DNA from: Botryllus schlosseri
Lineage: Eukaryota
Assembly: GCA_051294905.1 (NCBI GenBank)
Contig: CM119372.1
Location: forward strand, 33,482,001 to 33,546,000
Length of the DNA stretch: 64,000 bases
Direction: 5' to 3'
Positions 15,181 through 61,986 of this stretch are shown one piece after another (the first letter of the stretch is position 1; each line of letters starts with the position of its first letter). The notes beneath the pieces were generated by a model. It was not told the DNA's origin and did not search any database. It saw only the letters and a program-made list of their open reading frames with translations. A program made the translations under genes and the position numbers.

Positions 15181-17772
15181 GTCTAGACGGATTCATGGCA
15201 TCTACGGAAGAGCGCTTATCTTGCTGTACGAAAATGAAATATTATTTTCAAAGCAGACATCAGCATCGGGAAAGAAGTTCCGGACAGTTAGTCAGTGGTC
15301 AGATCATCTGCTGAAATTTCTGTCGGCATGAAACCACACTACCTTTTACCGCATGACCAAATTTTATGCGGTGATCATAATTGGCTCCAGGCTGAATTTT
15401 TTACGAGGGCATCATCAATTTCTTAGTTGCCTATGTTCGGCTCTCTTGGGATAATCCATCAGATCATTAATTCGTATACATGTAGTAAAGCAATGTCTTG
15501 AAACTCAATATATTTGCAATGTGCCAAACAGTAAAGTAATCCAATCCAAGCAATCAATCAAGTAATCCAGACAGTTTGTTGCATCATCAGCTGGAGCTGA
15601 TGATCATTTTTCTTCGGGTAGTGGCACTTGGCAGCATGATCAATAACTTGGGTATATGTAATATAGGTATAGAGGTCTAAATATGTTGAATTGTTTAACT
15701 GAGAAGCCATACAATAGCATAGGATGTTTAATATATATATTGTATGTAGCATGTTGCATGAATTCCTAACACATCAACATACTGGCAGTCATTAATCAAT
15801 TGTCTCTTCAGGCTTACAAATAGCGGTATCCTATATATATTGCAAACGATATCAATCATCAAAATACTGCAATGATTACCAACTACCACTATACAATACA
15901 ACTATAGTAGGCTATAAGTATACTATCCACACCTAACTTAATGCTGCATTAAATATCACGTAGTCAATCAATCTGTGCTAATAAAATCAGCATTGTACAA
16001 GGCAACAATGAAGTGCACTGCTTTGTTTAGTCTTGATGTCAGGTTTTCCCAAAAGATACTTCCGATTGTTCAGCGTCATTGTTTTATGTCAACACGACAG
16101 CAGAGCAGACAGTATATCCTGATCCTTGCGGGTCCCAGCTGCTTCAGTCATATCTTCCATCCAAAATCAGGCTCCACAACAGACATATAGTACTACTTGA
16201 ACTAACAAATACTCTTACCAGAATATAAACCAATCGCTCTGCATCAAATGCCAGAATTTATGTACATATGATCAGAGTTGAGTACCGTAATACGACTACG
16301 TTACCGAGGGATTTCTGCGTAATTCTGACGATGTCATTCGAAATGCTTTGTACAGGACTGACGTCTAGCATAGGTGAATCTCTGATGACATCCACAACAA
16401 ATTTCTGAAACGTTTACAACCAGAAATCAACAGTACATTATGCGTTATTTAGGACTGAAGTAGGTGCGCGAGAAAGTAGCTTGCTAACCAATTTGTGGTT
16501 GCTATGCGTATTTAGTCACGTGATCGAAGTCCTGCAAATGGCCTATTGGCCGAGAAATGGGTGTAAATGTTAACTTTCTTCGTTCAAGGTTATCTTCAGC
16601 ACTAAATTCAATTGAACAGTTAGTAGACTTGTATGCTCTTCTTTGTAGGATGCAGCATGCAGATAGGGATTGGCGGCAGTTTTTGCATGTTGGTTGATGT
16701 CCGAAAACTTTCTCTTTTGATGCTTATCCATTGGATTATCTGGGTAAAATTCAAAACCTTTACTGACTTTTTAGTAGTTACACTATTTTTTGCTATTTCT
16801 CAAGTTAGCGAGCAACTGATCTCCACCTACATGGTAGACAATAACCGTATACCTGATAGGCGAAAACTACAAGAATTAGTTTGGATACTGCTTATCATCA
16901 AAGCCGACATAATTTCATGCAAAATCCAATTAAAAGAAATATACAGCTCACCTGCTTTCTGTATAAATTTCGAATCCAACAAATTCCCGACAGCGCGACA
17001 CATCTTATTCTCCCTCAACCAACACACCCTCAGCTTACACAAAAGACAAAGACATTTTTCATTGCAATTCGACATGAATAAAGTGGCAGGAGCCAACAAA
17101 CCAAGCATATATTCTGTTGGATTAGTGTGCGATGAACCATAGCTGCAATAATAATGCCTGTGATATTAGATTGCTTTTTCCAATATATGATTTAACGATA
17201 TGATATCATTTTCACTATATGCAGAAATTATCCCTTGTTTTATGCGACCATTATCTCTGTCAGTCGTGTTCATCTCATATCCGGATTGATAGATTGAATA
17301 TGTTCGTTCACCTATGACCTCAAATGTTTTGTTCCAACCCAGTGACCACTGCTGACGAGTCTACTACGGCTGGCTTGTGTTATTTTTGGCGATGACCAAA
17401 AATCTTTGATGAGCAATAAGAAATTTAGCAACCTAAAAGCTGCATACTTAGGAAATCCATAAATTAAACTTCCTTTACATTTTTAAACTTATACGGGCTG
17501 AAACCGGAAGTACGCTACCTAGCTTCTGATTGGTCACTAAGTGTTGTCCTTAGTAACTGCTGATTACGGCGTCGTCAGGTAGGCTGTAGGCTGCGTATTG
17601 CTATGCTATAGTATGGAATAGGGATGTAAACAAAACATTTTGAGGCTATTTTATAGTAATATGAAGTTCCAGTTGCCGTCAGGATGAATCTGCTGATTAT
17701 TCCTCGTGATATTGCCCAATATCTCACTTCTCATTTGTCGCAGTGTCACATTGATAGATATTATAGTAATTC

Positions 17773-19059
17773 ATGGATACGGAGATTATCACACTAGCAG
17801 GTGCATTATCCTTCTTTTCTGAAGATCTGGGCGTTATTGGAAAGGCTGAACTGAAGATTAAATCAAATCATGTAGTTTCATTGAAAATAGACGAGTTCCG
17901 AATTAATGCAAAGATCAGGGCATCATGGAAGGACAAAGAGTACAATGTTATTGTCAATATAGATGGGACAGGCGGTATTAGTAGTGCGGCGTGTGAATGC
18001 CCTCGAGGCAAATGGATCTGCAGTCACATGGCAACAGTAGCCATATACGTAAACAAAAATGGTATGTCGAAAACGGACCTCCCAAATTCATGGATTAAGC
18101 GTCCAAGAGGAGCGCATAAAGAAAATATTCAACCACTGAAAGAGTTATTTCCATCGTCCAAACCATTATACAGTGCCTTGCCAAGAAAATTGGATCTAGA
18201 GGATAGAAAATCCTTCCAAATGAATTTGTTCAAAACTGATACTACGTGCCCGATGAAATGGATTGCTGGCCCTGAGCCCCCATCACACTTAGCATCATCC
18301 GCTAGAATAACAGAAAGTATTTCCGATCTGTTCCCATTATTCCAAGCAGACAGGAACGAATTCTTGCATAAGTGCCGGGTAGAACCTGATCAAATTGCCA
18401 TTGTGGCTGAAGAAACTAAGCTGCAATCCAAATCACAGTTATGGGGTCGGATGCGCAGTCACAGACTGACTGGAAGTAACTTTGGACGGGTCATCAAAGC
18501 CTTTGATAGGCATAGTTGCTCTGGTTCTTACCCCGAGTCGTTATTTAAAACCCTCTGTGGCGAATACAATTTATCGTGCAAAAGTGCGATAATGTGGGGC
18601 CAGATGCACGAGGATGCAGCGGTCAAAGCTTATCAAGACGTCACCGGCAACACTGTTGAGAAGGCTGGGCTATTTCTATTCCCTTGTGGATATCTTGGGT
18701 GCACACCCGATGGCATTATACTTACTGCTGATGGAATGAGAGGAGTATTAGAAATTAAGTGTCCATGGTCTCACCGGAACAAAACTTTTATTCAAATCAT
18801 GACGGAGAAACAAGAAAAAGACACTTCAACATACTTGGATCAGAGCGGTGTACTGAAGAAAAACCACGAATATTGGCATCAAACTCAAGCGGAAATGGTA
18901 GCTACTAAGACATTATGGTGTCACTTTGTACTGTGGACAACAAAAGATATGCGAATCATAACAGTAACAAAGGACAATCATTGGACCGAAGAAAACTTGC
19001 CAAAATTGACCAATTTCTATCTGGATACGTTTTTGCCACACGTCACATCTTCAAAATAA
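17773..19059 (+). CDS. SWIM zinc finger + YqaJ/lambda-exonuclease-like PD-(D/E)xK nuclease, 428 aa
   Basis: SWIM CECPRGKWICSH; YqaJ motifs WGRMRSHRLTGSNFG, WGQMHE, LGCTPDG, LEIKCP, YWHQTQAEM; intact ATG-to-stop ORF. Confidence 0.9.
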   Translation: MDTEIITLAGALSFFSEDLGVIGKAELKIKSNHVVSLKIDEFRINAKIRASWKDKEYNVIVNIDGTGGISSAACECPRGKWICSHMATVAIYVNKNGMSKTDLPNSWIKRPRGAHKENIQPLKELFPSSKPLYSALPRKLDLEDRKSFQMNLFKTDTTCPMKWIAGPEPPSHLASSARITESISDLFPLFQADRNEFLHKCRVEPDQIAIVAEETKLQSKSQLWGRMRSHRLTGSNFGRVIKAFDRHSCSGSYPESLFKTLCGEYNLSCKSAIMWGQMHEDAAVKAYQDVTGNTVEKAGLFLFPCGYLGCTPDGIILTADGMRGVLEIKCPWSHRNKTFIQIMTEKQEKDTSTYLDQSGVLKKNHEYWHQTQAEMVATKTLWCHFVLWTTKDMRIITVTKDNHWTEENLPKLTNFYLDTFLPHVTSSK

Positions 19060-19250
19060 TTTCTTCCTGATCTGGCTATCATTAATTTTGACTGAATATA
19101 CTCATACTCAATTTCATAAGCTATCTTTGTTTGTTCATTCAGGAAAGACACAATCAACAAAAGAGATCTGCGGTTTCCAAAATATCAGCTGAAGCTGTAG
19201 GCACTACAACTATTTTGATTCAAGACAATACGAGAAATTCTGCATTGAAT

Positions 19251-21042
19251 CTAAACTGGGTTATTTGATTCAAGGTATCGCTCAAATACTCCTTGAATGG
19301 TTGGAGACTGCAAATTTACTAGAACTCCACATAGTTGCACCAGCTTATCTACGAAAGGTCTCTTTGTGCTAGTAATCAAATTTAAAATTTTATAATTGCG
19401 GATTCTTTCTATAGCTCTCTCGACATGTATTCTACAAGAAGCTATCTTTTTGCAGAACTTTGCCTCATTCTCGGTAAATTGCTTCTTTCCTGCTAGGAAT
19501 GGTGGCAGATTCAACGAAACTCCGCTTGGCATCAATTCATGAATGACAAATCCTTTGTCTGCCAGAACTAAATCCCCGGCCTGTTATAAAGAAGCATCAT
19601 ATAATCTTACGGATTACAATGTTTAAATAGCTAAATAATATTCAATGGAACGCCTGGAGCTAACCTTATTTCAGACTTGGACTTATTGTCATCAAATAGT
19701 AATTCAAATTTCATGAAACAATAATTTGATTCATTCTGAAAGCCTCCAACTTTAATATCCTAAATAGACGATATGTGTCTGTCTATAATAATCTGTCTAT
19801 GATTCGAATGCTGATACAGACCTGGAAATGTTGTAATACTCCTGAAAGCTTGGTGATCATTTTGTCACTGGTACTTCCAGGGTATCCATCACTAATGAAA
19901 GTTATTGCTCCATTGGGAGCTACTCCAATTAGATATTTAGCTGTCAGTCGTTTCTTGTAGTTACTGAAACTTGAGCAAGCTGCTTCAAGATCTTTTCTTG
20001 GGGTTTCTATGAAGAATTCTGTGCAGTCTATAATCATGCGGCAATTTGAAATCCCATGAAACTTCTGAGGAGTTGTGCACAAATGCTTGGCAACCGATGG
20101 AACTTGGTTCAAAAATTCTTTGAAAAATAGCTCATGCATGACATGCAAGTACGTCAAAAATATGTTATTGATTGAGGTATGGCTCAGATTGAACAGTTTT
20201 GCTAAAAAAACACTTGGCAGGTCGAATTTCATTTTCAGGAGCATTATGAGCAGCTGGTCAGAAGTGCTCACAGATTGCACAATTTTGCCGGTCCAGTAAG
20301 TCAAAGGCTGGAATCGGTCAATCTGCTTTACAATAAGTTCAAAAATATCTTTACTTAGTCCAGTGAAATTATGAACTTCAGCATTGGTCATATTTGTTGC
20401 TGACAGTATTCGTGATGACTGTGCAGCCATAGAGAGGAGTGTTGCCTCGGTGTCGCACTTCAGCTGATCAAGTTGTTGCGCCTGGCTTCTGGTTTTATCC
20501 ACAAGGGCAGCAATCACACTATGGGCAACAGCTATTTCTCCTTTAAGCTTTTCCAACTGCTCTTGCTGTGGAATCTTTTCCAGTTCCTCTTGCTTTGGTA
20601 TGTATTGTTCTTCTGATGGGATAGTGATGGTACTGTCATTTACAGAACTACCACTGGATTTGCTGGATACCATAACTGTGCTGCAACTTGGCTTTTCATC
20701 AGCAGTCACTGTTCCACTAGCACGCTGAGATGTACAAGTTTTACGCTGGTATATTCGTGTATCCCTTTCCTCACCTCGAAGATTGCAGCTTGGCACAGCA
20801 TCCTTTTTCAATCTCTTTTTTTGAAACTCATCTGGTACATCTGACAATCTTTTACGGCTGTAATCTTCAACTCTGAAATGATACGAGCACACTAGAGAAG
20901 TAGGGCAGGGTGACCAATTTTTTCTATTAATCCTATTAATCCACATCTTTTCAAGCTTTTTATCTTTTGGAAATTGGTGAAACGATCGACCCGGATTTCT
21001 TTTGTGCGTGGCTGCACACCCAAATACAACACAATGCACCAT
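19251..21042 (-). CDS. THAP-domain, HTH, DDE_Tnp_4 (Harbinger/ISL2EU) transposase; two exons, 21042-19822 and 19580-19251, ~516 aa
   Basis: THAP motif C-x4-C...FP...W...CSYHF...AVP; catalytic IIDCTE / LADKGF / HVERAI. A 241-bp phase-0 intron (19581-19821, CAG|GTCTGT...TTTATAACAG|GCC) joins HFQ to AGDLVLADKGF in frame. Confidence 0.9.
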
Positions 21043-21639
21043 AGTGATTACAGCAACAGTGTGCTGTAAAGCTCTCTTCAACAAATTATACGCTCTTAAA
21101 AATATACCTATTTATAGGAATAAGAGATCGTTTCAAATTCAACTAAAATCGCAGAAATACACATTACCGTGACAAAATAGTATGTATTATTATTATAGCG
21201 AAACTTTATCACCAGACACTCCGTAATCCTAACATCTCTTTTGCAGTTTCATGGCAAATGTTCGTAGTATCATACTATCATACGCAAAAACCATAATAAC
21301 AGTCGCGGCGCTTGCGTTGCTATCGGCAGTTGCTAACGCCTAGACGCATTGTCCAATCAGAATGCGTCCTTACAAACTTCCGGTTTCAGCCCGTATTGCT
21401 TTGCAAGAAAATGTTGGTACAGTAATTGTTTCAAAGAAAAATGCAGGTACACGTACCGGTAACGTTTTCTATTACTACGTGGGGCTGACCAAATCTAGAA
21501 GTGATTCTATTCAAGATTGCAAGTCTGGTGTCAATCATTATTATCTCATAACAGTTTTTATGAATTATAAATATGAATATCTTATGCCATAGAAGAAGAA
21601 GCAGAAAATATCGACTTTACGGCCGTAAGAAGATGGGGA

Positions 21640-22170
21640 ATTTGGTGCAGATGGTCCATCGATGACATAGCGGACTTTGATACGGCCATAATATGCTGAA
21701 ACTAGGATCTAAGTGGAAAAGATGTCTGAAGAGGGAAACGCCATCCTAAGTGGGAAAGATGTCTGAAGAGGGGAACGCCATCCATTCGAGTTCCGGGCTA
21801 ATCTGATAGAGGATTGCCGAATGTCCATCGGGGACATAGCGGACAGTGATACGGTCATAATATGCTGAAACCAGGATCATAAATATGTAGAAAACAATTC
21901 TAAGGAGAGGAAAGGCCAACCATGCATGTTCCAGGCTAATTTGACAGAAGATTGCCCAATGTCCATCGATGACATAGCTGACAGTGATACGGTCATAATA
22001 TTCAGAAACCAAGGTCATAAATATGTGGAAACCATCTCTGAAGATCTGGGAAAGCCAACTATGCGAGTTCCAAGCTAATCTGGGGGAAGATTGCCCAATG
22101 TCCATCAATTACATAGCGGATATGCGGATACGGTCATAATATGCTGAAACCTCAATCAAAATATGTGGAT
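21640..22170. repeat. Tandem repeat, ~138-139-bp unit, about 4 copies
   Basis: GATTGCCxAATGTCCATC...GATACGGTCATAATA..GAAAC recurs at 21812, 21950 and 22089, with a degenerate copy near 21650. Confidence 0.8.
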
Positions 22171-28447: not shown

Positions 28448-29458
28448 TTAACATGATTCTTTCACGGTATCGTCCATAGATGCGCCGGCGTGCTGCGATC
28501 CTCCTGGTGGCGATGGCATTACGCTGGCCATGATCGGTGCTAATACTGAATTAGTAACTATCCCGACTCCCCCAGCCGTTTTCCACATTTCCTTTTGAGT
28601 GAATTCGGTCAGATGCATTATAGCGTCGCCAAGATACTGGCTTTCTTCTCGCATGGGATTAAAAAATGAATGATTCAGCGCTTCTGCGGCGGTGATGCGA
28701 CTGTCTTGATCTTCATTCAAAAGCTGTTTTATCAAGTCCTTCGAAGACTCCGAAACGCGATCCCAATAAAGTGAAGGGAAGGAAGCACCAGACGGGTGCG
28801 TTCCGCTGAGCAAATTGTAAAGTACGCACCCACACGCCCATAAGTCGATCGGCGTGCCATACTTGAGACCTTGGACCATCTCCGGCGCTTTATATTTACG
28901 CGTACCGAGGTCTCCGAGTTTTCGCCTGGCTTTGCCCTTTGTCTCGACCGCCAAACCGAAGTCCACTAGCTTCACAACTTCTCTTTTGTCTTCGATAGTC
29001 AACGAGAGATTGGGAGGCTTCACGTCACGGTGTATGATATTTTTAGTGTGGCAGTATTGTAGTCCGGTGAATATGTCTCTCATATAACGCATCACGTTGC
29101 TTTCGCAATGAGAAGTACGCTGTCTTTTGATGACATACTGGTAGAGATCGCCACCATTCAATAGCTCGAACACCAGTCGATAATCCTTCGCGTCCGAAAA
29201 GCTGCCGTAGAACTTCACAATGTTACGATGGTCAAGTTTCTTGATAATATGCTTCTCTTCGGACAATATCTCGACTTCCGGTCGCTGCATACCTTCTTTA
29301 CTGATGATCTTAACGGCGTATTCTCTCGCCGACTCTCTATGAATGCATTTCTTAACTATTGCGCAGGCTCCGGTGCCGAGAACTTCTTCCTCTTCGTACA
29401 AGTCATCGAACCCCAACCTTCTGCCAGGGCACACGAAGGCACCACATGAAAAGTCCAT
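28448..29458 (-). CDS. Intronless CaMK-group (CaMKII/CASK-like) Ser/Thr protein kinase, 336 aa from the first ATG
   Basis: Gly loop LGTGACAIV, YAVK, HRDVKPPN, DFG, APE, DLWACG, RITAAEALNH; single uninterrupted ORF. Confidence 0.88.
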   Translation of the reverse strand: MDFSCGAFVCPGRRLGFDDLYEEEEVLGTGACAIVKKCIHRESAREYAVKIISKEGMQRPEVEILSEEKHIIKKLDHRNIVKFYGSFSDAKDYRLVFELLNGGDLYQYVIKRQRTSHCESNVMRYMRDIFTGLQYCHTKNIIHRDVKPPNLSLTIEDKREVVKLVDFGLAVETKGKARRKLGDLGTRKYKAPEMVQGLKYGTPIDLWACGCVLYNLLSGTHPSGASFPSLYWDRVSESSKDLIKQLLNEDQDSRITAAEALNHSFFNPMREESQYLGDAIMHLTEFTQKEMWKTAGGVGIVTNSVLAPIMASVMPSPPGGSQHAGASMDDTVKESC

Positions 29459-30535
29459 CTTCACTGCAAACCGTACTGGTAAGACTGCTCAGACAGTGTC
29501 CCCGACAGTAAAGCTCTTTTTCCAGATGAACAACGGCAGTACTAAGCTTCGCGCTAGCATGGGGTGATAAAAACATTGCTTACATTGTAATTTCCCGGGC
29601 GACACGTTTAGTACGATTGACTTCTAATTACTCTTTCGCACCGCAGAGCACCCAACTCAGACTTCTTGTGCGGCTGACTTTGAAAAGGCTTTAGCAACTA
29701 CAGTATGGTTTAAGAATAAGACGGTATAGTAAGAATTTATATAGCAATAGTCGCTCATTTTATTTCAGCGAACCTGAGAATCTCAACCAACTTCTATAGT
29801 CAATGGGAACGATTAGAGAAGGGCAAATTATATATTATGTAACTGAATCAATGCCGAATCTAATACTAGGCTTAAAGTCGAGAATTCGATTGCCACACAT
29901 TATGACGTCATACATGATAAGAGCAAATAACCAAGTTTAGGTTTGTACCTTTCAGAAAGTCTGAATGAAAATATTGACAGTGACACTCACTCAAATCCAT
30001 ATGTCAATATCTATTCATTATTTAGCCGCATGCTGCATGTCTTCTCTACTGTTACGAATTCAGTATAGATGTCATAGTTTCGACAGTGGGATGAAAGTGT
30101 CGAAATAATAATTCCTGTCTATTAAATAGTTCTTCATCACACACTTTGGCAGAAGAATAAAATTACACTCTGCGACCAGAATCACTACAATCTGTAATCA
30201 TCTCGATTTCGATTACTCGGATCGTTTTGCTTAGATCACAGCCAAAGAAATTACTTTCCATAGTGATGACGCACGCTAAATTCCTCTGATCTAACCCACC
30301 ATTTCCCGCATGTCCAACCGAACAAACAAGCGCGACGGCTAATTTCAAAAGCCGTGTCGTCATTATTTCTATTCGATTTGTAGGGCTACTGCTATCCTAG
30401 ACGACGATAGAGTCGATGACAATGCATTGACGTGCTTTGCACAGTAATAAACAGAGCAGGGGGACTTTTCATGCGTATAATTGGAGTAATTCCTCAAATA
30501 GGCGATCAATAATTGACTGTTCCCACGCACTAGAT

Positions 30536-43770: not shown

Positions 43771-46700
43771 CTATTTATCCGAGCCCGGTCGCACCCCGCT
43801 ATGTTCCGCCATTTCAACGTTTTCCTTCTTTGCGGGTTGCTGCGTTACCCTGTTCTCCCTCGGTGTCGGTGGTCTGCATATGCAGAAGATACCGCGCAAA
43901 GTGTGCTTGGTTGATTCACGTATAGACTACGAACCGATATTGTAGACGATCGGGTTGACAGATTCCGTGACGCTCAACAGTAACCTGTAAGTCAGTAAGA
44001 CTACTCTGCAGACGTGATGGCTGTCTGAAATACGGAATATGGTAAAAACAAGATAGCAGATCTTGGGAATGTATCCCAAAAGGAAAGAGGCAATGATCAA
44101 AGCAAGCTGCAGCAACGCGTCCCTGTCCTCTTTACGGAGTTGGTGATTTCCCGAGAGGTGTTGTCTTTTCGATCTCTGCGCAAGCAGCGACAATCCTATA
44201 GCAACGCACAGAATGATGATCAAAGCCACAAGAACAAAAGTTATGACGACAGCATCGATGATATTGAAAATACGAAACACCCACATGTCGGGTGGTCGGA
44301 AAAAGCAGACCAATTTCGTCGAATTAGCAGAGTATTTGACATCCAAGTAGTAAGCTGGAGTAGGAACAATAACTATGATGGCAACCACCCACACAGCCGC
44401 GGTTATCCGCTTGGGTCGTTTCAGAATCATGACCTTGCTAGCTCGATGGGGGCAATGAATAGCGTACATCCGCCAAAAAGAGAGTGTCAGCACTAGAGGG
44501 ACTGTTACAGCTGGCGTGAGAATCAGTATGGGATGCAGTGGCGGCTCGTGACAATATCGTGTGGTGGGGCAAGGGGTGTACGCGATTTTAATTGTCTAAA
44601 TGACGTCACAATAGTGTATTGCGACGTGAAAATGTGACTTCGTGATGGTCACACACAATTTGTATGGGGTATAGACATTAGGCATGGCATGGCATGGCCA
44701 TGGCCATGGTTAACAAAGATTACGCATTTCAAATTATTCGAGAGAAAATATGAAGTACAGTAGTTCATACCTGCACATTTTAACGTTTGTATCAGTAGGC
44801 CTATTGCGCGCGGCGTGATTTCATAGTTGAAAAATGTTCAACGACGAGTTCATTGAAATCTGGAATACCCAGAATGAGAGCGTAAGAATCGTGAGCACAT
44901 CTAACGCATCGAGCCTAATCACTGCAGCAAAGTTGATAAAAAGCGATTTTTCATAGGAATTTTACAAGTTCACTAGTGGTTACTACTACGGAAAAAGGTG
45001 TATTGGAATATAAACCAGTCAAATCGAGTTGAGCAATGTCGACCATCGGGTAATATCGAGACACCGTTTGCAGTAGCCCGCATGGTTCAGATCACGTTAC
45101 CCAATTTCGGTCGCACTAAAGACACTGTCCCCTGGCACCAGCAGTGTAAAAGTGTATTTGTATAACATGGCGTCCTCATCCTCGCTTATACGTCAGCCTT
45201 TCATTTTTTATCGAAGTACGTTGGGAAAAGGGTAAGAGTGCGCTTTCCTTCCGTGTACGTTTAGATCAATGGATGATTTCCAGGCTGATAAGGGCCGAGT
45301 CTAGTGTAAAAACACCGAATTTAGCGTAAAATATATTAAGGTATAGACTGATCAAGCGATCAGCTGTTGGCCGTCATCGAAAACGAACTAGGCCTATAGC
45401 TAACGTGCTTGACATAGGGATGTCAGCAAATGGCTTGAAGGCCACAATTTCACGGTAAAATTGACATTGGAGAATATAAAATAAAGTAAAGATTTGAATG
45501 CAAACCACGAATCTTAGTAACCTCATTTATGAGATCATCATCTCTTCACCTATCTCAGTATGAAACACAGTTAAAATTAGCACAGACCAACACAGGCTTT
45601 TGCGTGAAATCCGCAATGCGGTAGTTAGCATTAGGCCTGTGTCAGATCAGCACCCATCTCTACTATACTTGACCTCGACAACGAAATTAGTGTCCAAATC
45701 ATTGAGTGTCAACCTCAAGACTTGGCACAACGTTTGATACTGAAATCAAGACATATCGTCCAAAAGCTCAAGACCGATCTAGGTATGGAGCATCGTTAAA
45801 ATCGATAGAGACCAATACAGGTTTTGCGTAAAATCTGTTAGTGATAAATGGCGAGTCAGCTCTCACTCGACTCAGGAGACGAAATTACCACTCACATAGC
45901 TCCGTGATAAACTTAAAACTTGGTACGGCGTTCGATACTAACACTATGACTAACTATGCCAAATGTCATGACCGATCTGGGCATGAAACATCGTCAAAAT
46001 CAATGGAGACCAATATCCGCTTTTAAGTAAAATCTGTTTGTGATACATGACGGATTAGCACACTGTCAACGTTGGAAACGAAATTACTGCCCTACACTTT
46101 GATTAGCAACCCTGAAACTTGGAGCGGTGTTAAATACCACCTTCACGACATAACATACCAAGTTTCAAGAATTATCAATGGGTGAAACATCGCAAAAATC
46201 GTCCAATACCAGCTAAGGTCGACTCAACGCGTGTGCCGGTAACCGAGTTGAGATATAGATGCGATTGTTACATCACACCTTAGGGGCAACCAGGTAAGTT
46301 GCCCTACTTGCTCGGTAATTTTATGAATAGGAGAGAGTAAATCACCGTTTCTTTATTGTGCGCGGATTTTAGAGAATAGACAGTGAAAACTTGTTATGAG
46401 CGCTACTGGAGCAAGCCCCGGCTAGGCATTCACAAAGCGAAAACACAGAAGAGAATTCGATTTTCGTATAGACTGCGCTAGGTATGGGCATTCACAAGCG
46501 AAAGCACAAGAAGAATGCGGGTTTCGCTGTGATATCGGTATATATTGGTTGCTGTGCGTCTATAAATGGTAAATGATTGTTATTGAACAGCATTTTAGGT
46601 GGGGCAATGCCCCAGTTGCCCTATAGGACGAGCCGCCACTGATGGGATGCATCGCTTTGCAGATTGCTCTGTTCCAAGGATAATCTTTTCCAATCACGGA

Positions 46701-46982
46701 ATAGAGGAGCTGAGTTATGACGAAAGGCGTAGCAAGAATGGACAGTATATCGGAACAGCACAAGCTAATGATGATCACATTGAGAGGGGTTTGTTTCATT
46801 TTGAAAAGAGCCATCAGTGCAATTATATTCGAATCGAGTCCAAAAGTACACGTCGTCCCGAAAGCTGGTATAACTAAAGAGATCTCAATTTCCCTAATCC
46901 TTGGTGGAAGCTCAAGCGATGCAGTCGTTGCTAATGACATTTTTGGGTCGATTGCGTGTTTCGAAGTTGAACTATTCATCAT
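43771..46982 (-). pseudogene. Intronless class A (rhodopsin-like) GPCR, split in TM3 by a MITE and with a premature stop after NPxxY
   Basis: TM1 GLDSN, TM2 LCCSD. Removing 44536-46641 and one TSD gives in-frame CKAMHPILILTPAVTVPLVLTLSFWRMYAIHCP. TM6 FLLGYIP, TM7 NPIVY, TAG at 43927-43929, then an open tail SIRESTKHTLRGIFCIC... to a stop at 43771. Confidence 0.85.
44536..46641. mobile_element. hAT (Tip100-like) MITE inserted in the GPCR
   Basis: TIRs CAGTGGCGGCTCGT / ACGAGCCGCCACTG; perfect TSD ATGGGATG. Confidence 0.92.
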
Positions 46983-47653
46983 TAGCACGTATGGGATCTG
47001 ACTTTGCCTGTAAGATTGAAAGAACCAACTGTATTCCAGAAGATGTAATATTGATAGTCTTATATCTATTGGTTCGCGTCAGTAACGACGTACTTCCACT
47101 TCTTCGAAATACTCAGGTAGGTATTCTCTACTTGCAGTACTTACTCAAGTATATCTAAATTTCCGCTACTTCTACTTTTACTCCGTCACATATTGTTACA
47201 TACTTAGTCCTAGCGATTTTTTGTCAAATATAAACAGTTTGCTCTCACAACGTGAGAGAGAGAGAGCAATCCAGGGCTCGCTAGCCATATGGGGCTCTTT
47301 TACGCATCTACCCCGGCTACCTCTTTGCAGGTAAAGCAAAATAAATGTATATTGCATCAAAAATTTCATGAGATAATAATTATATTTAGAGATAATTGAT
47401 AATGGTATTGTTGCGCTTATGTAACTTCCGTGCAAGACTGCATTTTCAAATTGATTGTGGCGTTGAAGAGAGATATCAAAAAGTTCTCGAATGTTTTGCC
47501 CGCTAGTCGCATGTGATCACATGGTTGTCTTTCCAATCTCTAGTCCACAACAAAATCACTAACGCAAACACGTACCTAACTCGTCTTGTATTTCTTGCAA
47601 CAAACTTTATAGGACAAATTTAAGTGTTGGGCAGAATACTTCAACACCTTTAC

Positions 47654-57719: not shown

Positions 57720-60700
57720 TTACGGTCTATAGAAATCGGTGGGTTTCCTATTTCTAAGAGGATAACGTCTGCCCGACGATCGAGCAGGACTAGCTGCAGG
57801 ACGTTGTGCCCTATTCCTGACCAATGGTTGCTCAGCTTGGGACTGTTGAGGCTGAGCAACTTCCTGTGTGGCTGTATCATGACCAGTGGAAATCAAGCGT
57901 GGTTGGAGTTGGTTTTTGTGCCTCCTCCAATACCCATGATCTGTTTTTATGATGTACACAACACGCCCCAGTATTTCCGTCACCACGCCAGCAACCCACT
58001 TTGGTCCGCTTCGGTAACTGCGAGCGTAAACCGAGGAACCAATCTCAAAATGAGTGACTGATTGTCTAGGCGTAACGGGTTTCGATTTGTCGAAGGGCGA
58101 GCACAAACTTAACAAATTGCGCGGCTGCCGACCATGTAAAATCTCGGCAGGCGTTTTCCAGTCTATGCCCGGGTGCGGTGCACATCGGTACGTAGCGAGA
58201 AGTGTTTGGAGCGCGAAGTTGAGATCTTTTCCCCCGTCGCAATTTTTTATCAATCCAGCTTTTAGAGTCTGGACGAAACGCTCCGCTTCCCCGTTAGAGG
58301 CAGGGTGAAAAGACGGTGATACGATATGACTGATTGCCAAATTAGAACAAAACGTATCGAATTCATTCGATGTGAATTGCGGCCCGCCATCTGTGACAAT
58401 TGTTATGGGCAAGCCTTCGATAGAGAAGACTTCCCCCAAAGCGTTGACCACACACAAGGTTGTGGTAGAACCGACATTCATTACTTTAACGAAAGGATAT
58501 TTCGAATGCGCATCGACGATGACAAGAAACATTTTATTGTTAATTGGACCTGCGAAATCCAAGTGAATTCGTTCAAAGCTTTCAGAAGTTTTGGGCCATT
58601 CGCGATACTGACGATCAGGCGCTTTCATTACCTTACGGCAAGCGTCGCAATCCTTAACGAGATTTTCAATGTCGCGATTAATGGAAGGCCATGCGATGTA
58701 ACGTCGAGCCATCTGCTTCATTTTCGCGATACCCCAATGTCCTTCGTGCAACAATGATAAGACTCGCGAGCGAAGTGACTGCGGAATTACTACGCGCTGA
58801 AAACCATCAATATTAAGCATGACTATGTCTTCGTGCAGAGAAAGCGAATGTTTGCGAGTCGAAAACCAAGAAAAATCATCAATGTGCACCTTTGGATTCC
58901 AATTACCATGAGTGACAGATAATTTTACGAATTTCATGGTTTCGTCCTTCAGCGTCGCGTCGCGAATTTCATTGCGAGTTAACGGCAAGCCATCGAATGC
59001 CATATTAATAGCGTGAACGATCTCCGCGTTTTCACGAATTTCCAGTTCGTCAAACTCAGGGTCTGGACCCTTTGGTAGGCGAGATAAACCGTCGGCGTTT
59101 CCGTGCTGATCAGTCGGTTTATAGCGAATATCGTATTGATAAGCCATGAGCGTTAGTGCCCATCGCTGTAAGCGTTGCGCTGTAATCACGGGAATTTTCT
59201 TGACCGGCGAGAAAATAGCTAAAAGCGGTTTGTGGTCCGTTACGAGCGTAAATTTTCTACCATACAAGAATTGACGAAATTTAGTGACTCCGTAAATGAT
59301 TGACAGAGCTTCCTTCTCGATTTGAGAGTAGGATTTTTGCGAATCGGAAAGCGTTTTCGACGCGTGTGCGATCGGTCTCTCTTCGCCATTGTGCTCGATT
59401 GAGAGGACAGCGCCGATTCCGAATTGAGAAGCATCAGTTGACAAAATGAGCTGCTTCTTTACATCATAATGAGCTAACTGCGTAGCGTCGATTACGTCGT
59501 TTTTGAGAATGCGAAAAGCTGCGTCACAGTCCGTATTCCAAATGAATTTCGCGTCTTTTTGAAGTAGACGGTACAAGGCAGCGGCTTTATTCGTAAAATT
59601 AGGAATAAACGCGCGATAATAATTGACTTTGCCCAGGAATGCCTGTAGCTGGCGAACATCCTGAGGTTTAGGCAACTGTTTGATTGCTTCAACGGATTTG
59701 TGAGACGGGCGTTTGCCGTCCTTGTCGATTATGTGACCAAGGTACTCGATACTACTTTTGAAAAATTCACATTTAGCGAAGTTGACGGTGAAACCGTACT
59801 CGGTGAGGCGCTCAAAGAGTAGCGATAAGTTGCGAAAATGATCGCATTCATCAATGCCAGTAACGATTATGTCATCGATAAAACTAGCAACACCGGGTAA
59901 GCCGGCGATCATGGCATCAATACAACGTTGGAAATTTGCGGGACTAGATGCGACTCCGAAACACATGCGTCGATAACGGAATAGACCGAATTGCGTGTTG
60001 ATGACACACAAATTCTTCGCATCATCATCTAATTCTAGCTGAAAATAAGCATCGGCAAGATCAATTTTCGTGAAAATACAACCACCCTGTAACTTGTGAA
60101 GGATTTCATCCAAGGAGGGCAGGGGATGTTGATCTATCTGAATTTGTTGATTCAATGCTTTGAAGTCACCACAAATGCGTACTGATCCATTTGATTTAGT
60201 GACGGCAACAATTGGTGCTGCCCAATCACTGTAATTGATTGGTTCGAGGATACCTTGATTGACTAATATATTCAATTCGGTTTGAACAGCGATTTGCCTT
60301 GCGAAAGGCAAAGGACGTGGCTTGTTAAATACGGGCTTGGCATTAGGTTTCAAGTGAATTGTCACCTTTGTCTTGGTGCATCGTCCTAATACATCAGAGA
60401 AAACGGAGGGAAATTTGGACTGAAAAGATACCAATTTGTCGTTCGAATCAGAAATGTCAATAGTATTACATGATTGCGATTTGACCATCTGCGAGGAAAT
60501 TGCATCCAAAGCAGAAGTTTCCTTAGCGGTCATGGAGAAAGCATCGCTCCAATCGAGACCAAAAATGTTTTGCCCACGGTGTTCGTCGAGAACTACCAAT
60601 TTTAAGCCAACTCGAACTTCAGAACCCACCTGCACAGTTACAGTGCAAATACCTTTCACTTTCAGTGGCTTGTCGCCGCACGCTACGAAAGAGCAATGGT

Positions 60701-61060
60701 ATGCTGAGAGTTTCGGAGAGCCCAAAGTTTTGTACCCAGTCAATCCCACCATGGCGGAGGGTGCACCAGTGTCCCACTGTGTCGGCAACGGAATGCCGTT
60801 GATGCTGGAGTTGATCCAGAGCTGGTTTCCTACGCGTCGATATGGTTGATCGATGTCGAAGGAGAGTAGCGGCACTGAGCAGAAATTGACGGATGTGACC
60901 TGATGCGTGATACTAGGTTTGGTAGACATGCAAACAGGTTTGATATGACCTTTACGACCACATTTCTGACGTACTGAATGTCGATATTGACAGTCTTTTC
61001 TCTGATGATCGATGAAACAGCGGCTGCAGGATTTCAGTCTTTCCGGGAAGTTGCCCTGGA
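57720..61060 (-). CDS. pol: Pol polyprotein (zinc knuckles, aspartic protease, RT, RNase H, integrase)
   Basis: Uninterrupted frame (1069 aa from 60929) with WDTGA, RICGDF, FIDD, TDAS, HEGH...CDAC, LDFAG/TDGG/EAER; upstream in-frame CSRC..H..C and KCGRKGH..C. Confidence 0.92.
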
Positions 61061-61986
61061 TGGATTTGGAAGGTTTTTCCCCTTCTGATAACTTCCCGTC
61101 ATTTTGTTGACGATGGAAGTATCTTTACCGTTACTCCCGCCCGGGATAACCCTATCAGTTTCCAGCGTTCTCACGTATGTTGCGGCTACTTTGAGAACGT
61201 CGTCGAGGGATGGATTGGTTTGTGTTAGACAATGCCGTCTCACATCCGCGTGCGGCATTTCTTTAATGATGAGATCGCGCATTAGCTCATCAACGTAGCT
61301 TTGATCACAGCCATCTCTTGAGCATATGAAGTTGCAATCCTTGGAGATTCCGCGTAGAGTTGCGATCCAATCGGCGTACGATTGCCCCGGTTGCATTTTG
61401 CAATTGTAAAATTCGTACCTGGCTACTTGCACATGAATGGAGTCCTTGAAGTGTGTAAACAACTTCTCAGTCAACGCGTCGAAGGTTTGCGCACTGACAT
61501 CAGCAGCACCAAACAAATTACGTAGGAGCGAGTACGTTTCAGGTCCAACCCATGAGAGTAGACACGCTCTTTTTTTCTCCATGCTGGAAATGCCGTAAAT
61601 TGCTAGGTGATGGTTGCATGATATTGGTCCCATTTCTCTTTTGATTTGATGAACGAATCAAACTTGGGAGCAGTAGCTTCAGATGCTGACGCACCGAGAT
61701 TCAACCTCTGCGTCAATTGCGTCATCTCTGTCATGACTTTTGCCATTGCTTCGTCATGCTTTGCTTGTTGTTGCACCATCATCTCTTGCTGCTTCGCTTG
61801 TTGTTGCGCCATAATCGCTTGCTGCTTCGCTTGTTGTTTCAAATCTTCTCTGTGCCGAGCATTTTGCTGCTCCAGCTCTTCTTTACGCTGTGATTTTTGA
61901 TTTGCTATGGTTTCTTCGTGTTGCCTTTGTTGCTTAGCCATCATTTCCTGCTGCTTCTCGAGAAGCTTCAGTATACCCGATTCCAT
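61034..61986 (-). pseudogene. gag: Gag, broken by two frameshifts (~61620 and ~61075)
   Basis: A Q-rich coiled coil and FDSF...WDQY continue in another frame as KKRACLLSWVGPETYSLL...RYEFYNCKMQPGQS...CNF...RD. The zinc knuckle lies in a third (pol) frame. Confidence 0.8.

What the first reader, a model, noticed from the sequence alone, without database searches (positions are those of the whole stretch)
17493..21394. Intact two-component transposon: THAP-DDE transposase plus a convergent SWIM-YqaJ exonuclease
Seen: perfect 19-bp TIRs, an AT TSD and two uninterrupted convergent genes with all catalytic residues present (transposase D/D/E once the 241-bp intron is spliced; nuclease PD...EIK and QxQ). 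It sits among otherwise decayed elements. Known: ISL2EU-type elements pair a Harbinger-family transposase with a YqaJ/lambda-exonuclease-like gene, so the architecture itself is not new. To my knowledge the role of the second nuclease is not established. Inference: this is a young, possibly active copy. The SWIM-YqaJ protein may process transposon or donor ends (5'-3' resection, homology-directed gap repair, target selection), making it a two-enzyme system that could be tested directly.
Basis: partly seen in the sequence, partly recalled or inferred. Interest (0 to 1): 0.8.

Follow-up and report, generated by a model that had tools for sequence, protein, structure and literature searches.

The report
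Intact ISL2EU transposon with nuclease gene
This is a complete, recently copied jumping gene of an already described animal type (ISL2EU) that carries a cut-and-paste enzyme gene and a second gene for a DNA-end-chewing nuclease whose role has never been tested.

Summary
Window 17493-21394 is a 3,902-bp DNA transposon with perfect 19-bp terminal inverted repeats. Five of five paralogous empty sites prove a 2-bp AT target-site duplication. It has two intact convergent genes. One is a SWIM + YqaJ (lambda-exonuclease-fold) protein of 428 aa. The other is a THAP-HTH-DDE_Tnp_4 transposase of 516 aa, whose second D and E are reached only by splicing a 241-bp GT..AG intron.

The intron position is supported by a seamless match to a spliced Rhopilema gene model and by conservation in five copies of two subfamilies. 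The genome holds a second intact copy with 19 differences in 3,902 bases, older decayed copies, and a ~77%-identical sister subfamily with two further intact copies. Between subfamilies both genes show dN/dS of 0.11-0.18, so the nuclease has been as indispensable as the transposase.

All defining traits match the published ISL2EU group of the PHIS superfamily, so this is a new member of a known kind. This scan has reported intact ISL2EU elements before, on other DNA.

Present-day activity is not shown: RNA reads were few, came from other copies, and none crossed the splice junction. The nuclease's role remains inference, most likely 5'-to-3' resection at breaks made by the transposase. The complex prediction was not folded.

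The parts
17491..17492 (.). Left copy of the AT target-site duplication
   Evidence: Single AT at the uninterrupted site in 5 of 5 paralogous host-repeat copies.
17493..17511 (+). Left 19-bp terminal inverted repeat (ACGGGCTGAAACCGGAAGT)
   Evidence: Perfect inverted repeat. 31 genome hits against 0 for the control.
17524..17533 (.). Left subterminal motif TTCTGATTGG (reverse complement CCAATCAGAA), 32-41 nt from the end
   Evidence: Invariant in 12 of 12 aligned ends of subfamilies A and B, which are otherwise ~77% alike. Its function (transposase binding site or CCAAT-type promoter element) is inferred.
17773..19059 (+). Nuclease gene: 428 aa, ZSWIM8-like SWIM module (residues ~3-109) and lambda-exonuclease-fold YqaJ domain (residues ~216-428); stop codon included
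   Evidence: ORF. Pfam SWIM and YqaJ. Fold matches to lambda exonuclease E ~1e-9 and LHK-Exo TM 0.72. N-terminal model against ZSWIM8 9rwz_M: Z 11.3, rmsd 3.2 A, 103 aligned residues; next best Z 4.5. dN/dS 0.11 against subfamily B.
19060..19250 (.). 191-bp spacer between the two convergent stop codons
   Evidence: Coordinates. No AATAAA on either strand here.
19251..19580 (-). Transposase exon 2 (109 aa plus stop): second catalytic D (LADKGF) and E (HVERAIE)
   Evidence: DDE_Tnp_4 profile 75-158. Aligns from its first residue to residues 369-471 of the spliced Rhopilema model P0075.
19581..19821 (-). 241-bp phase-0 intron, GT..AG
   Evidence: Same position, with GT..AG, in A1, A2, B1, B2, B3 (241, 241, 245, 245, 222 bp). 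Its middle is not alignable between subfamilies, while the exons are.
19822..21042 (-). Transposase exon 1 (407 aa): THAP zinc finger (20785-21033), HTH (20128-20274), first part of the DDE core with the first catalytic D (19822-20031)
   Evidence: Pfam. Alignment of 18 homologues. Aligns to residues 5-368 of P0075.
21353..21362 (.). Right subterminal motif CCAATCAGAA, 33-42 nt from the end
   Evidence: 12 of 12 ends.
21376..21394 (-). Right 19-bp terminal inverted repeat
21395..21396 (.). Right copy of the AT target-site duplication

Best explanation

Shown: the ends, the 2-bp AT duplication, both open genes, the conserved intron, a near-identical second copy elsewhere, and long-term purifying selection on both genes.

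Inferred from the families involved: the THAP-HTH-DDE transposase recognises the 19-bp TIRs and perhaps the invariant subterminal TTCTGATTGG motif. It cuts the element out and joins its 3'-OH ends to a target AT with a 2-bp stagger.

Inferred for the second protein: it is a catalytically competent lambda-exonuclease-type 5'-to-3' exonuclease that recognises 5'-phosphate ends. Its SWIM module brings it to the transposase or to DNA, and it resects the 5' strands at the double-strand breaks the transposase makes. My preferred version (about 0.4) is resection of the donor gap, so that repair copies the element back from the sister chromatid and the element gains a copy. The alternative (about 0.3) is removal of the non-transferred 5' strand at the element's own ends.

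Whether this particular copy still moves is open.
For: Anatomy.

Mobility in the past. Paralogous empty sites were found in 5 of 5 cases. AT flanks 16 of 17 termini. There are 31 TIR hits in the genome against 0 for the control. The twin copy on C8 has 19 differences in 3,902 bases and unrelated flanks.

Family. Han et al. 2015 (PMC4482050, passages read) and Han et al. 2014 (PMC4122938, one passage read) describe ISL2EU as having an AT TSD, a THAP+HTH+DDE transposase and a second ORF with a YqaJ exonuclease domain, in animals.

Splice. P0075 (Rhopilema esculentum NCBI gene model) aligns residues 5-368 to exon 1, ending at exon 1's last residue, and residues 369-471 to exon 2, starting at exon 2's first residue, with no gap. 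The intron sits at the same place in 5 of 5 copies checked. Most database ORFs stop just past the exon-1 end.

Selection, A1 against B1: nuclease gene dN/dS 0.11 (SWIM part 0.03, YqaJ part 0.14), transposase exon 1 0.16, exon 2 0.11.

Nuclease competence. The fold matches lambda exonuclease and LHK-Exo. A profile alignment to lambda exonuclease puts W224, R228, D313, E327, K329 on its W24, R28, D119, E129, K131. Lambda exonuclease binds dsDNA ends and digests the 5'-ended strand (table text of PMC3424549).

Link to transposases beyond ISL2EU. Two of the 12 proteins I scanned (P0148, P0206) join a Mutator-like transposase domain to a YqaJ domain in one predicted protein.
Against: No evidence of present activity or expression of this copy. 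Of three raw RNA runs, one gave 0 reads, one gave 44 reads (42 only partly aligned) and one gave 18 (all partly aligned). Depth was at most 4.4, lay almost only over the nuclease gene, and the reads carried differences from the window copy. No read spanned the intron. Only about 6-13% of each run was read, so this is weak either way.

At 0.5% divergence, two intact copies are expected without any ongoing selection (A1 against A2: 6 non-synonymous and 4 synonymous changes).

The second copy lacks the AT on its right side. About 7 bp seem missing there relative to one 82-85%-identical paralogue.

Two secondary traits differ from the published summary. The base outside the TSD is T in 13 of 17 ends (target TATA-like, not A|AT|T), and the TIR starts ACGGG, not GG.

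The nuclease's role has no direct evidence. No physical link to the transposase was shown, and no fused longer forms turned up in the word-index search (weak). The Mutator-YqaJ proteins are unverified gene models, and P0148 looks chimeric.
Confidence: 0.9

Rival explanations
1. The copy is structurally intact but no longer mobile: silenced, or carrying disabling missense changes. It would be a recent fossil rather than an active element.
For: No splice-junction read and almost no reads on the transposase exons in the RNA runs laid. The family is small: 31 termini, and only 4 of 25 places examined have all coding parts open (plus the window copy). A1 and A2 differ by 3+3 amino-acid changes whose effect is unknown.
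Against: TIRs are perfect, both genes are open, and all catalytic and zinc-binding residues are present. The 99.5%-identical twin shows transposition in the recent past. The RNA sampling was shallow.
Confidence: 0.45
2. The SWIM-YqaJ protein is an obligate second catalytic subunit of the transposase. It would work like Tn7 TnsA beside TnsB, cutting or degrading the 5' (non-transferred) strand at the element ends, without which excision cannot be completed.
For: It is conserved as strongly as the transposase and always described as paired with it in ISL2EU. It is a PD-(D/E)XK enzyme, the superfamily that includes TnsA (PMC3424549). YqaJ domains are fused to Mutator-like transposases in 2 predicted proteins. 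Notes of this scan, unchecked here, report relatives in which an XPG/EXO1-type 5' nuclease with a SWIM finger takes the same place.
Against: The fold and the conserved 5'-phosphate-pocket arginine point to an end-dependent exonuclease, not a site-specific endonuclease like TnsA. There is no Pfam TnsA match. No interaction was shown. Spy relatives transpose with a transposase alone (abstract of PMC11304231 as listed).
Confidence: 0.3
3. The gene pair is a domesticated host locus derived from a transposon, not a mobile element.
For: This scan noted such a TIR-less, nuclease-dead pair in Trichoplax (note e1-7319971, not checked here).
Against: Perfect TIRs, an AT TSD, an empty paralogous site, multiple copies at unrelated places and intact catalytic residues.
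Confidence: 0.01

Closest known systems
[quoted passage not shown] 2014, PMC4122938; Han et al. 2015, PMC4482050)
   Same: AT target-site duplication; short TIRs; THAP + HTH + DDE transposase; second ORF with a YqaJ exonuclease domain; size near the reported ~4.8-kb mean; animal host.
   Different: The base outside the TSD is mostly T (TAT|element, 13 of 17 ends), not the A|AT|T reported. The TIR begins ACGGG rather than GG. The SWIM module of the second protein is not mentioned in the three PHIS papers I searched (0 occurrences of 'SWIM'; it was not a search term). A search for SWIM + YqaJ + transposon gave 4 papers, none on this by title and abstract.
PIF/Harbinger elements (transposase plus Myb/SANT-like DNA-binding protein)
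   Same: Same DDE_Tnp_4 catalytic core and a two-gene layout in which both genes are needed (statement for Harbinger in PMC9179366).
   Different: 3-bp TWA duplication. The partner is a DNA-binding and nuclear-import adaptor, not a nuclease. Here the transposase carries its own THAP finger.
Lambda exonuclease / YqaJ / LHK-Exo and viral alkaline exonucleases (PD-(D/E)XK)
   Same: Fold (Foldseek E ~1e-9, TM to target 0.62-0.72). Profile match 3e-17 to 3syy and 1e-9 to lambda exonuclease. Equivalents of W24, R28, D119, E129, K131.
   Different: About 215 extra N-terminal residues with a SWIM module. No single-strand-annealing partner gene in the element. Eukaryotic transposon context. Trimer formation and activity not tested.
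Tn7 TnsA/TnsB (two-nuclease transposase)
   Same: A DDE transposase travelling with a PD-(D/E)XK nuclease (analogy only; TnsA's role as summarised in PMC3424549).
   Different: No sequence-family membership (no TnsA Pfam hit). The exonuclease-type active-site surroundings differ. Bacterial against animal element.
ZSWIM8 SWIM region (PDB 9rwz chain M, residues 111-223)
   Same: The whole N-terminal ~105 residues superpose (Z 11.3, rmsd 3.2 A, 103 residues; next hit Z 4.5). CxC..CxH zinc ligands are invariant.
   Different: 15% identity. ZSWIM8 is a ubiquitin-ligase substrate receptor, so a shared fold says nothing about a shared function.

Membership tests
ISL2EU (PHIS superfamily) | DDE_Tnp_4-type (IS5/Harbinger-like) transposase core with D, D, E | tested here: met
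   Pfam DDE_Tnp_4: 75.4 bits (exon 1, profile 1-69) and 61.9 bits (exon 2, profile 75-158), cut-off 24.8. D339 invariant. D8 and E54 of exon 2 invariant.
ISL2EU (PHIS superfamily) | N-terminal THAP zinc finger on the transposase | tested here: met
   Pfam THAP 59.6 bits, residues 4-86, cut-off 23.9. C52 and H55 are invariant, C4 nearly invariant; C9 is present here but is not among the conserved columns.
ISL2EU (PHIS superfamily) | HTH domain between THAP and DDE | tested here: inconclusive
   HTH_Tnp_4 26.3 bits, E 5.6e-6, just under the curated cut-off of 27.
ISL2EU (PHIS superfamily) | Second ORF encoding a YqaJ exonuclease-domain protein | tested here: met
   Pfam YqaJ 62.8 bits, cut-off 22. 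Lambda-exonuclease fold.
ISL2EU (PHIS superfamily) | 2-bp AT target-site duplication | tested here: met
   5 of 5 paralogous empty sites carry one AT. 16 of 17 termini are flanked by AT.
ISL2EU (PHIS superfamily) | Terminal inverted repeats of 6-259 bp | tested here: met
   19 bp, perfect.
ISL2EU (PHIS superfamily) | Secondary traits, not defining: target A|AT|T and TIRs usually starting GG | tested here: not met
   T at position -3 in 13 of 17 ends, A in 2, C in 1. The TIR starts ACGGG. The paper words both as usual or speculated traits.
ISL2EU (PHIS superfamily) | Transposase falls in the ISL2EU clade of a PHIS phylogeny | not tested
Lambda exonuclease / YqaJ (PF09588) | PD-(D/E)XK catalytic D, E, K and the 5'-phosphate-binding Arg | tested here: met
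   D313, E327, K329 are invariant in 37 sequences. They align to D119, E129, K131, and R228 aligns to R28, of lambda exonuclease.
Lambda exonuclease / YqaJ (PF09588) | Toroidal trimer and processive 5'-to-3' exonuclease activity | not testable with these tools
   Needs biochemistry.
SWIM zinc finger (PF04434) | CxC-x(n)-CxH ligands in a beta-beta-alpha module | tested here: met
   Pfam 23.5 bits, cut-off 19.6. C76, C83, H85 are invariant and C74 at least 90%. ZSWIM8 match Z 11.3.
Tn7 TnsA (PF08722) | Sequence membership in the TnsA endonuclease family | tested here: not met
   No TnsA family among the Pfam hits at E up to 0.01. The resemblance is functional analogy only.

The most novel reading that the evidence does not exclude
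The SWIM-lambda-exonuclease protein is not cargo but a second enzyme of the transposition machine. It would be tethered to the DDE transposase through its SWIM module, or fused outright as in the Mutator-YqaJ proteins, and would degrade 5' strands at the transposase-made breaks. In that case ISL2EU would be a eukaryotic two-nuclease transposon. It would either complete excision in the manner of Tn7 TnsA/TnsB, or force homology-directed refilling of the donor site and so turn cut-and-paste into net copying.
Probability: 0.3. Interest if true: 0.65.

Novelty: new member of a known kind. Interest (0 to 1): 0.3.

Why it matters
In itself the element is ordinary: one more family of a transposon group described since 2007-2015. 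Its practical value is as a clean test object. It offers two nearly identical intact copies, exact ends, a proven target duplication, a verified intron and a sister subfamily for comparison.

Han et al. 2015 said the role of the YqaJ nuclease in ISL2EU was unknown. I found no paper in the held library that addresses it. A transposase-with-or-without-nuclease assay could use this copy directly.

If the nuclease proves to steer break repair, or to be part of the cutting machine, that would matter in two ways. It would explain how cut-and-paste elements gain copies, and it would bear on transposon-based gene-transfer tools.

Tried and rejected
1. Complex prediction of transposase exon 1 + exon 2 + nuclease. 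The tool answered NOT FOLDED under one of its rules.

2. RNA. No listed holder is on record as RNA. The lay of four runs gave no junction read and only sparse, partly aligned reads from other copies. This is not usable for or against expression of this copy. A contig joint 17489->21394 in run X1 is the empty form, but it probably comes from a paralogous repeat copy and is not evidence of excision.

3. Own-genome search with the right flank did not complete because the machine was busy. It was not needed, since the loci already spanned the empty sites.

4. Search for longer, fused relatives of the nuclease through the word index: none found (weak).

5. Sigma-70 promoter and terminator scan of the spacer: not meaningful for a eukaryote. 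AATAAA search: none in the 191-bp spacer, and 83 matches in the window against 97 expected, so uninformative.

6. Protein atlas search with the N-terminal 115 residues: only SWIM-type and unnamed eukaryotic clusters, nothing new.

7. Non-autonomous short derivatives (MITEs). The TIR pattern gave 31 termini, mostly belonging to long copies or solo ends. No short paired elements were seen in the 7 extra loci fetched.

8. Domesticated-locus reading: rejected (see rivals).

9. Host identity: not resolved. The best named homologues are from the jellyfish Rhopilema esculentum. A note of this scan guesses a sea squirt for this genome.
Full report
**What is there.** The window is G000:C2:33482001-33546000 of a 495.5-Mb, 219-contig eukaryotic assembly. 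Positions 17493-21394 form a 3,902-bp unit.

- It is bounded by a perfect 19-bp inverted repeat (ACGGGCTGAAACCGGAAGT), with AT outside each end. One search reports it as a 21-nt, 100% complementary pair.
- The plus strand carries an uninterrupted 428-aa ORF at 17773-19059.
- The minus strand carries a 407-aa exon (21042-19822), a 241-bp GT..AG phase-0 intron (19821-19581) and a 109-aa exon (19580-19254, stop 19253-19251). Spliced, this gives 516 aa.
- Pfam finds SWIM (residues 60-94) and YqaJ (224-378) in the first protein.
- Pfam finds THAP (4-86) and DDE_Tnp_4 split cleanly between the exons (profile 1-69 and 75-158) in the second. HTH_Tnp_4 scores 26.3 bits against a cut-off of 27.

**The ends and the duplication are real.** The element lies in a ~2-kb non-coding host repeat, whose left flank gives 42 matches in the genome. 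In 5 of 5 paralogous copies fetched, the two flanks are contiguous and share exactly one AT: '...aaactt AT tgctttg...'. So the boundaries are exact and the duplication is 2 bp, AT. Across 17 termini of 10 elements, 16 are flanked by AT and 13 by TAT. The 21-mer (AT + TIR, up to 2 mismatches) occurs 31 times in the genome against 0 for the reversed control.

**The intron is real by comparison, not by RNA.**

- The NCBI gene model P0075 from the jellyfish Rhopilema esculentum (477 aa) aligns residues 5-368 to exon 1, ending at exon 1's last residue. It aligns residues 369-471 to exon 2, starting at exon 2's first residue, at 72% identity and without a gap.
- The intron sits at the same codon boundary with GT..AG in 5 of 5 copies checked from two subfamilies, with lengths 241, 241, 245, 245 and 222 bp.
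- Between subfamilies, only the exons, about 25 nt at each intron edge and the termini align.
- Most database homologues, called as plain ORFs, end just after the exon-1 boundary.
- Unspliced, the protein stops at 419 aa and lacks the second D (LADKGF) and the E (HVERAIE).

**Copies.** The own-genome search gave 82 matching pieces.

- One copy, on C8, is full length with 19 differences in 3,902 bases and entirely different flanks. Both of its genes are open.
- Other subfamily-A copies are 97%, 94% and ~90% identical and carry stops or frameshifts.
- A sister subfamily B (~77% nucleotide identity) has two copies with all coding parts open (L030, L032) and one with a frameshift (L031). The rest are decayed.
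- Of 24 other places examined (17, 7), 3 have all three coding parts open. With the window copy that makes 4 of 25.
- Four loci hold only 37-67 bp of an end and have no second TIR within about 5 kb.
- The C8 twin has TIRs with one change each and lacks the AT on its right side. One 82-85%-identical paralogue suggests about 7 bp are missing there.

**Selection.** Between A1 and B1, dS is 0.74-1.19. dN/dS is 0.11 for the nuclease gene, 0.16 for transposase exon 1 and 0.11 for exon 2. By region, the SWIM-bearing N-terminus scores 0.03, the YqaJ domain 0.14, THAP 0.08, HTH plus DDE 0.09, and the transposase linker 0.37. The nuclease gene has therefore been as necessary to the propagating lineages as the transposase. 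Between A1 and A2 there are too few changes (6 non-synonymous, 4 synonymous) to say anything.

**The second protein.**

- A 37-sequence alignment keeps C76, C83, H85 (C74 at 90% or more), D313, E327, K329 and Q370 invariant.
- The AlphaFold model has mean pLDDT 82.9. Its best matches are lambda exonuclease (6m9k, 3slp, 1avq; E ~1e-9; TM to target 0.62-0.65) and LHK-Exo (TM 0.72), followed by a phage exonuclease, mimivirus R354, Cas4-type and herpesvirus alkaline nucleases.
- A profile of the family hits 3syy at 3e-17 and lambda exonuclease at 1e-9. The printed alignment places W224, R228, D313, E327, K329 on lambda's W24, R28, D119, E129, K131. That R28 is the 5'-phosphate contact is my recollection of the lambda exonuclease literature, not something a call showed.
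- The N-terminal 125 residues, folded alone (pLDDT 81.2), match the SWIM region of ZSWIM8 (9rwz_M 111-223) with Z 11.3, rmsd 3.2 A over 103 residues. The next chain scores Z 4.5. The whole N-terminal module, not only the 35-residue Pfam core, is therefore a SWIM-type domain.

**Distribution.**

- The word-index search found 72 relatives, the best at 59% identity. The named ones are from Rhopilema esculentum.
- The exhaustive search of 1.84 billion cluster representatives found 108 at E up to 1e-30, 2,288 at up to 1e-10 and 6,782 at up to 1e-3.
- Nuclease and transposase homologues sit on contigs of identical length in five cases: 801,167; 2,341,888; 696,563; 4,751; 16,759,797. That fits linkage elsewhere, but identity of the contigs is only inferred.
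- I scanned 12 proteins: 10 of 484 aa or more and 2 near-full-length relatives (P0099, P0104). Two of them (P0148, P0206) combine a Mutator-like transposase domain with a catalytically complete YqaJ domain. These are unverified gene models, and P0148 looks chimeric.

**Ends.** Aligning 12 ends (A1-A3, B1-B3) shows two conserved blocks. One is the TIR. The other is an invariant TTCTGATTGG at 32-42 nt from each end. Its reverse complement, CCAATCAGAA, looks like a CCAAT box (my reading). It may be a transposase binding site, a promoter element for the two inward-facing genes, or both. This was not tested.

**RNA.** No holder is on record as RNA. In the lay:

- Run X13 gave 0 reads.
- X17 gave 44 reads (42 only partly aligned) and X21 gave 18 (all partly aligned).
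- Depth was at most 4.4, almost all over 17869-19164.
- Some of the differences seen match the C8 copy (18229C, 18985G) and some match neither copy (18240G, 18453A, 19134C, 19142T).
- None crossed the intron.
- X1 (contigs, kind only guessed) covers most of the element, including unspliced intron, so it is probably DNA or a diverged copy.

Expression and splicing of this copy therefore remain untested.

**Comparison with what is known.** Han et al. 2015 (PMC4482050, passages read) describe ISL2EU as follows:

- AT duplications;
- two ORFs, one a DDE + HTH + THAP transposase and the other a YqaJ-domain protein;
- TIRs of 6-259 bp;
- mean length ~4.8 kb;
- 25 families in 14 animal species, 12 of them potentially active;
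- the role of the extra ORF unknown.

Han et al. 2014 (PMC4122938, one passage) and the teleost survey (PMC9179366, passages) say the same. Every defining trait I could test is met. Two secondary traits differ: T rather than A outside the duplication, and a TIR starting ACGGG.

The word SWIM does not occur in the 2015 and 2022 papers. A search for SWIM + YqaJ + transposon returned 4 papers, none relevant by title and abstract. Repbase reports are not in the library, so I do not claim the SWIM module is unreported.

I found no transposition assay for ISL2EU. Two papers hold both terms, and both concern other families. Twenty-eight papers since 2019 mention ISL2EU, 25 of them listed, and none by title or abstract is on its mechanism. 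Supplements of these papers were not read.

**Earlier notes of this scan** (unchecked by me) report three things:

- intact ISL2EU elements with SWIM-YqaJ in another genome;
- relatives in algae and elsewhere where an XPG/EXO1-type nuclease with a SWIM finger takes the same place;
- a TIR-less, nuclease-dead pair in Trichoplax.

If the replacement holds, what the two nuclease types share is 5'-to-3' nuclease activity plus SWIM. That is why I favour 5'-strand resection at transposase-made breaks.

**Mechanism and odds.** It is shown that this is a cut-and-paste-type element that inserted at AT with a 2-bp stagger and copied itself recently. The rest is inferred.

- THAP, HTH and DDE do the recognition and the strand transfer.
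- The nuclease is an active exonuclease dependent on 5'-phosphate ends.
- About 0.4: it resects the donor gap and channels repair to homologous refilling.
- About 0.3: it removes the non-transferred 5' strand at the element ends (TnsA-like in effect).
- The remainder covers other or non-catalytic roles.

**Verdict.** This is a new member of a known kind, of modest interest as a well-characterised test object for an old, small open question.

Noticed in passing
proteins P0148 (840 aa) and P0206 (604 aa): A YqaJ nuclease domain 31-40% identical to this one, with its PD..E.K and Q.Q motifs intact, is joined to a Mutator-like transposase domain (PF20700) in one predicted protein. This suggests YqaJ nucleases also travel with a second DDE transposase superfamily. 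The gene models are unverified, and P0148 looks chimeric (it has a partial extra YqaJ at its N-terminus).
   Followed up: partly
window 17524-17533 and 21353-21362: The invariant subterminal motif TTCTGATTGG / CCAATCAGAA sits 32-42 nt from both ends in 12 of 12 ends of two subfamilies that are otherwise ~77% alike. It looks like a CCAAT box. It may be a binding site or a promoter element.
   Followed up: partly
window ~16546-17492 and 21395-~22490: The host repeat into which the element inserted is about 2 kb, has no Pfam-recognisable ORF, and contains a 138-bp tandem array at 21771-22169. It has dozens of copies at 70-95% identity in the genome. Its class was not determined.
   Followed up: partly
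window 57720-61124 (-): An uninterrupted 1,134-aa ORF with reverse transcriptase, RNase H, integrase zinc-binding and integrase core domains (Ty3/gypsy-like pol). A further 207-aa ORF lies just upstream at 61034-61657 with no Pfam match. Observed only.
   Followed up: no
window 28448-29488 (-): A single-exon 346-aa ORF with a complete protein kinase domain (Pkinase 209.7 bits).
   Followed up: no
window 43927-44595 (-) and 46560-47078 (-): Two ORFs matching different parts of the rhodopsin-family 7TM receptor profile (profile 72-260 and 5-62). They are probably exons of one GPCR gene.
   Followed up: no
L002 (G000:C8:17959636-17963537), right flank: The near-identical twin copy has AT on its left but CG on its right. 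One 82-85%-identical paralogue reads AT + aaggt before the same flank, so about 7 bp (the second AT plus 5) seem lost at the right junction. That flank is a ~200-bp dispersed or tandem repeat (787 first-look candidates).
   Followed up: partly
L044, L045, L047, L048 (G000 C5:15.33 Mb, C7:6.88 Mb, C1:40.25 Mb, C4:2.24 Mb): Solo termini: only 37-67 bp of an element end (94-100% identical, AT-flanked, TIR perfect or with one change), followed by unrelated sequence, with no second TIR within about 5 kb. These could be truncations, abortive events or ends of much larger elements.
   Followed up: partly
window 18958, run X21: Five RNA reads carry what I recognise from memory as a template-switch oligo sequence immediately before 18958, inside the 3' part of the nuclease ORF (table 7). 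It could be a cDNA 5' end or a strand-invasion artefact.
   Followed up: no
G000:C2:33665722-33671798 (about 120 kb beyond the window): A decayed subfamily-B copy with stops and an insertion lies on the same contig near the window (locus L038).
   Followed up: partly
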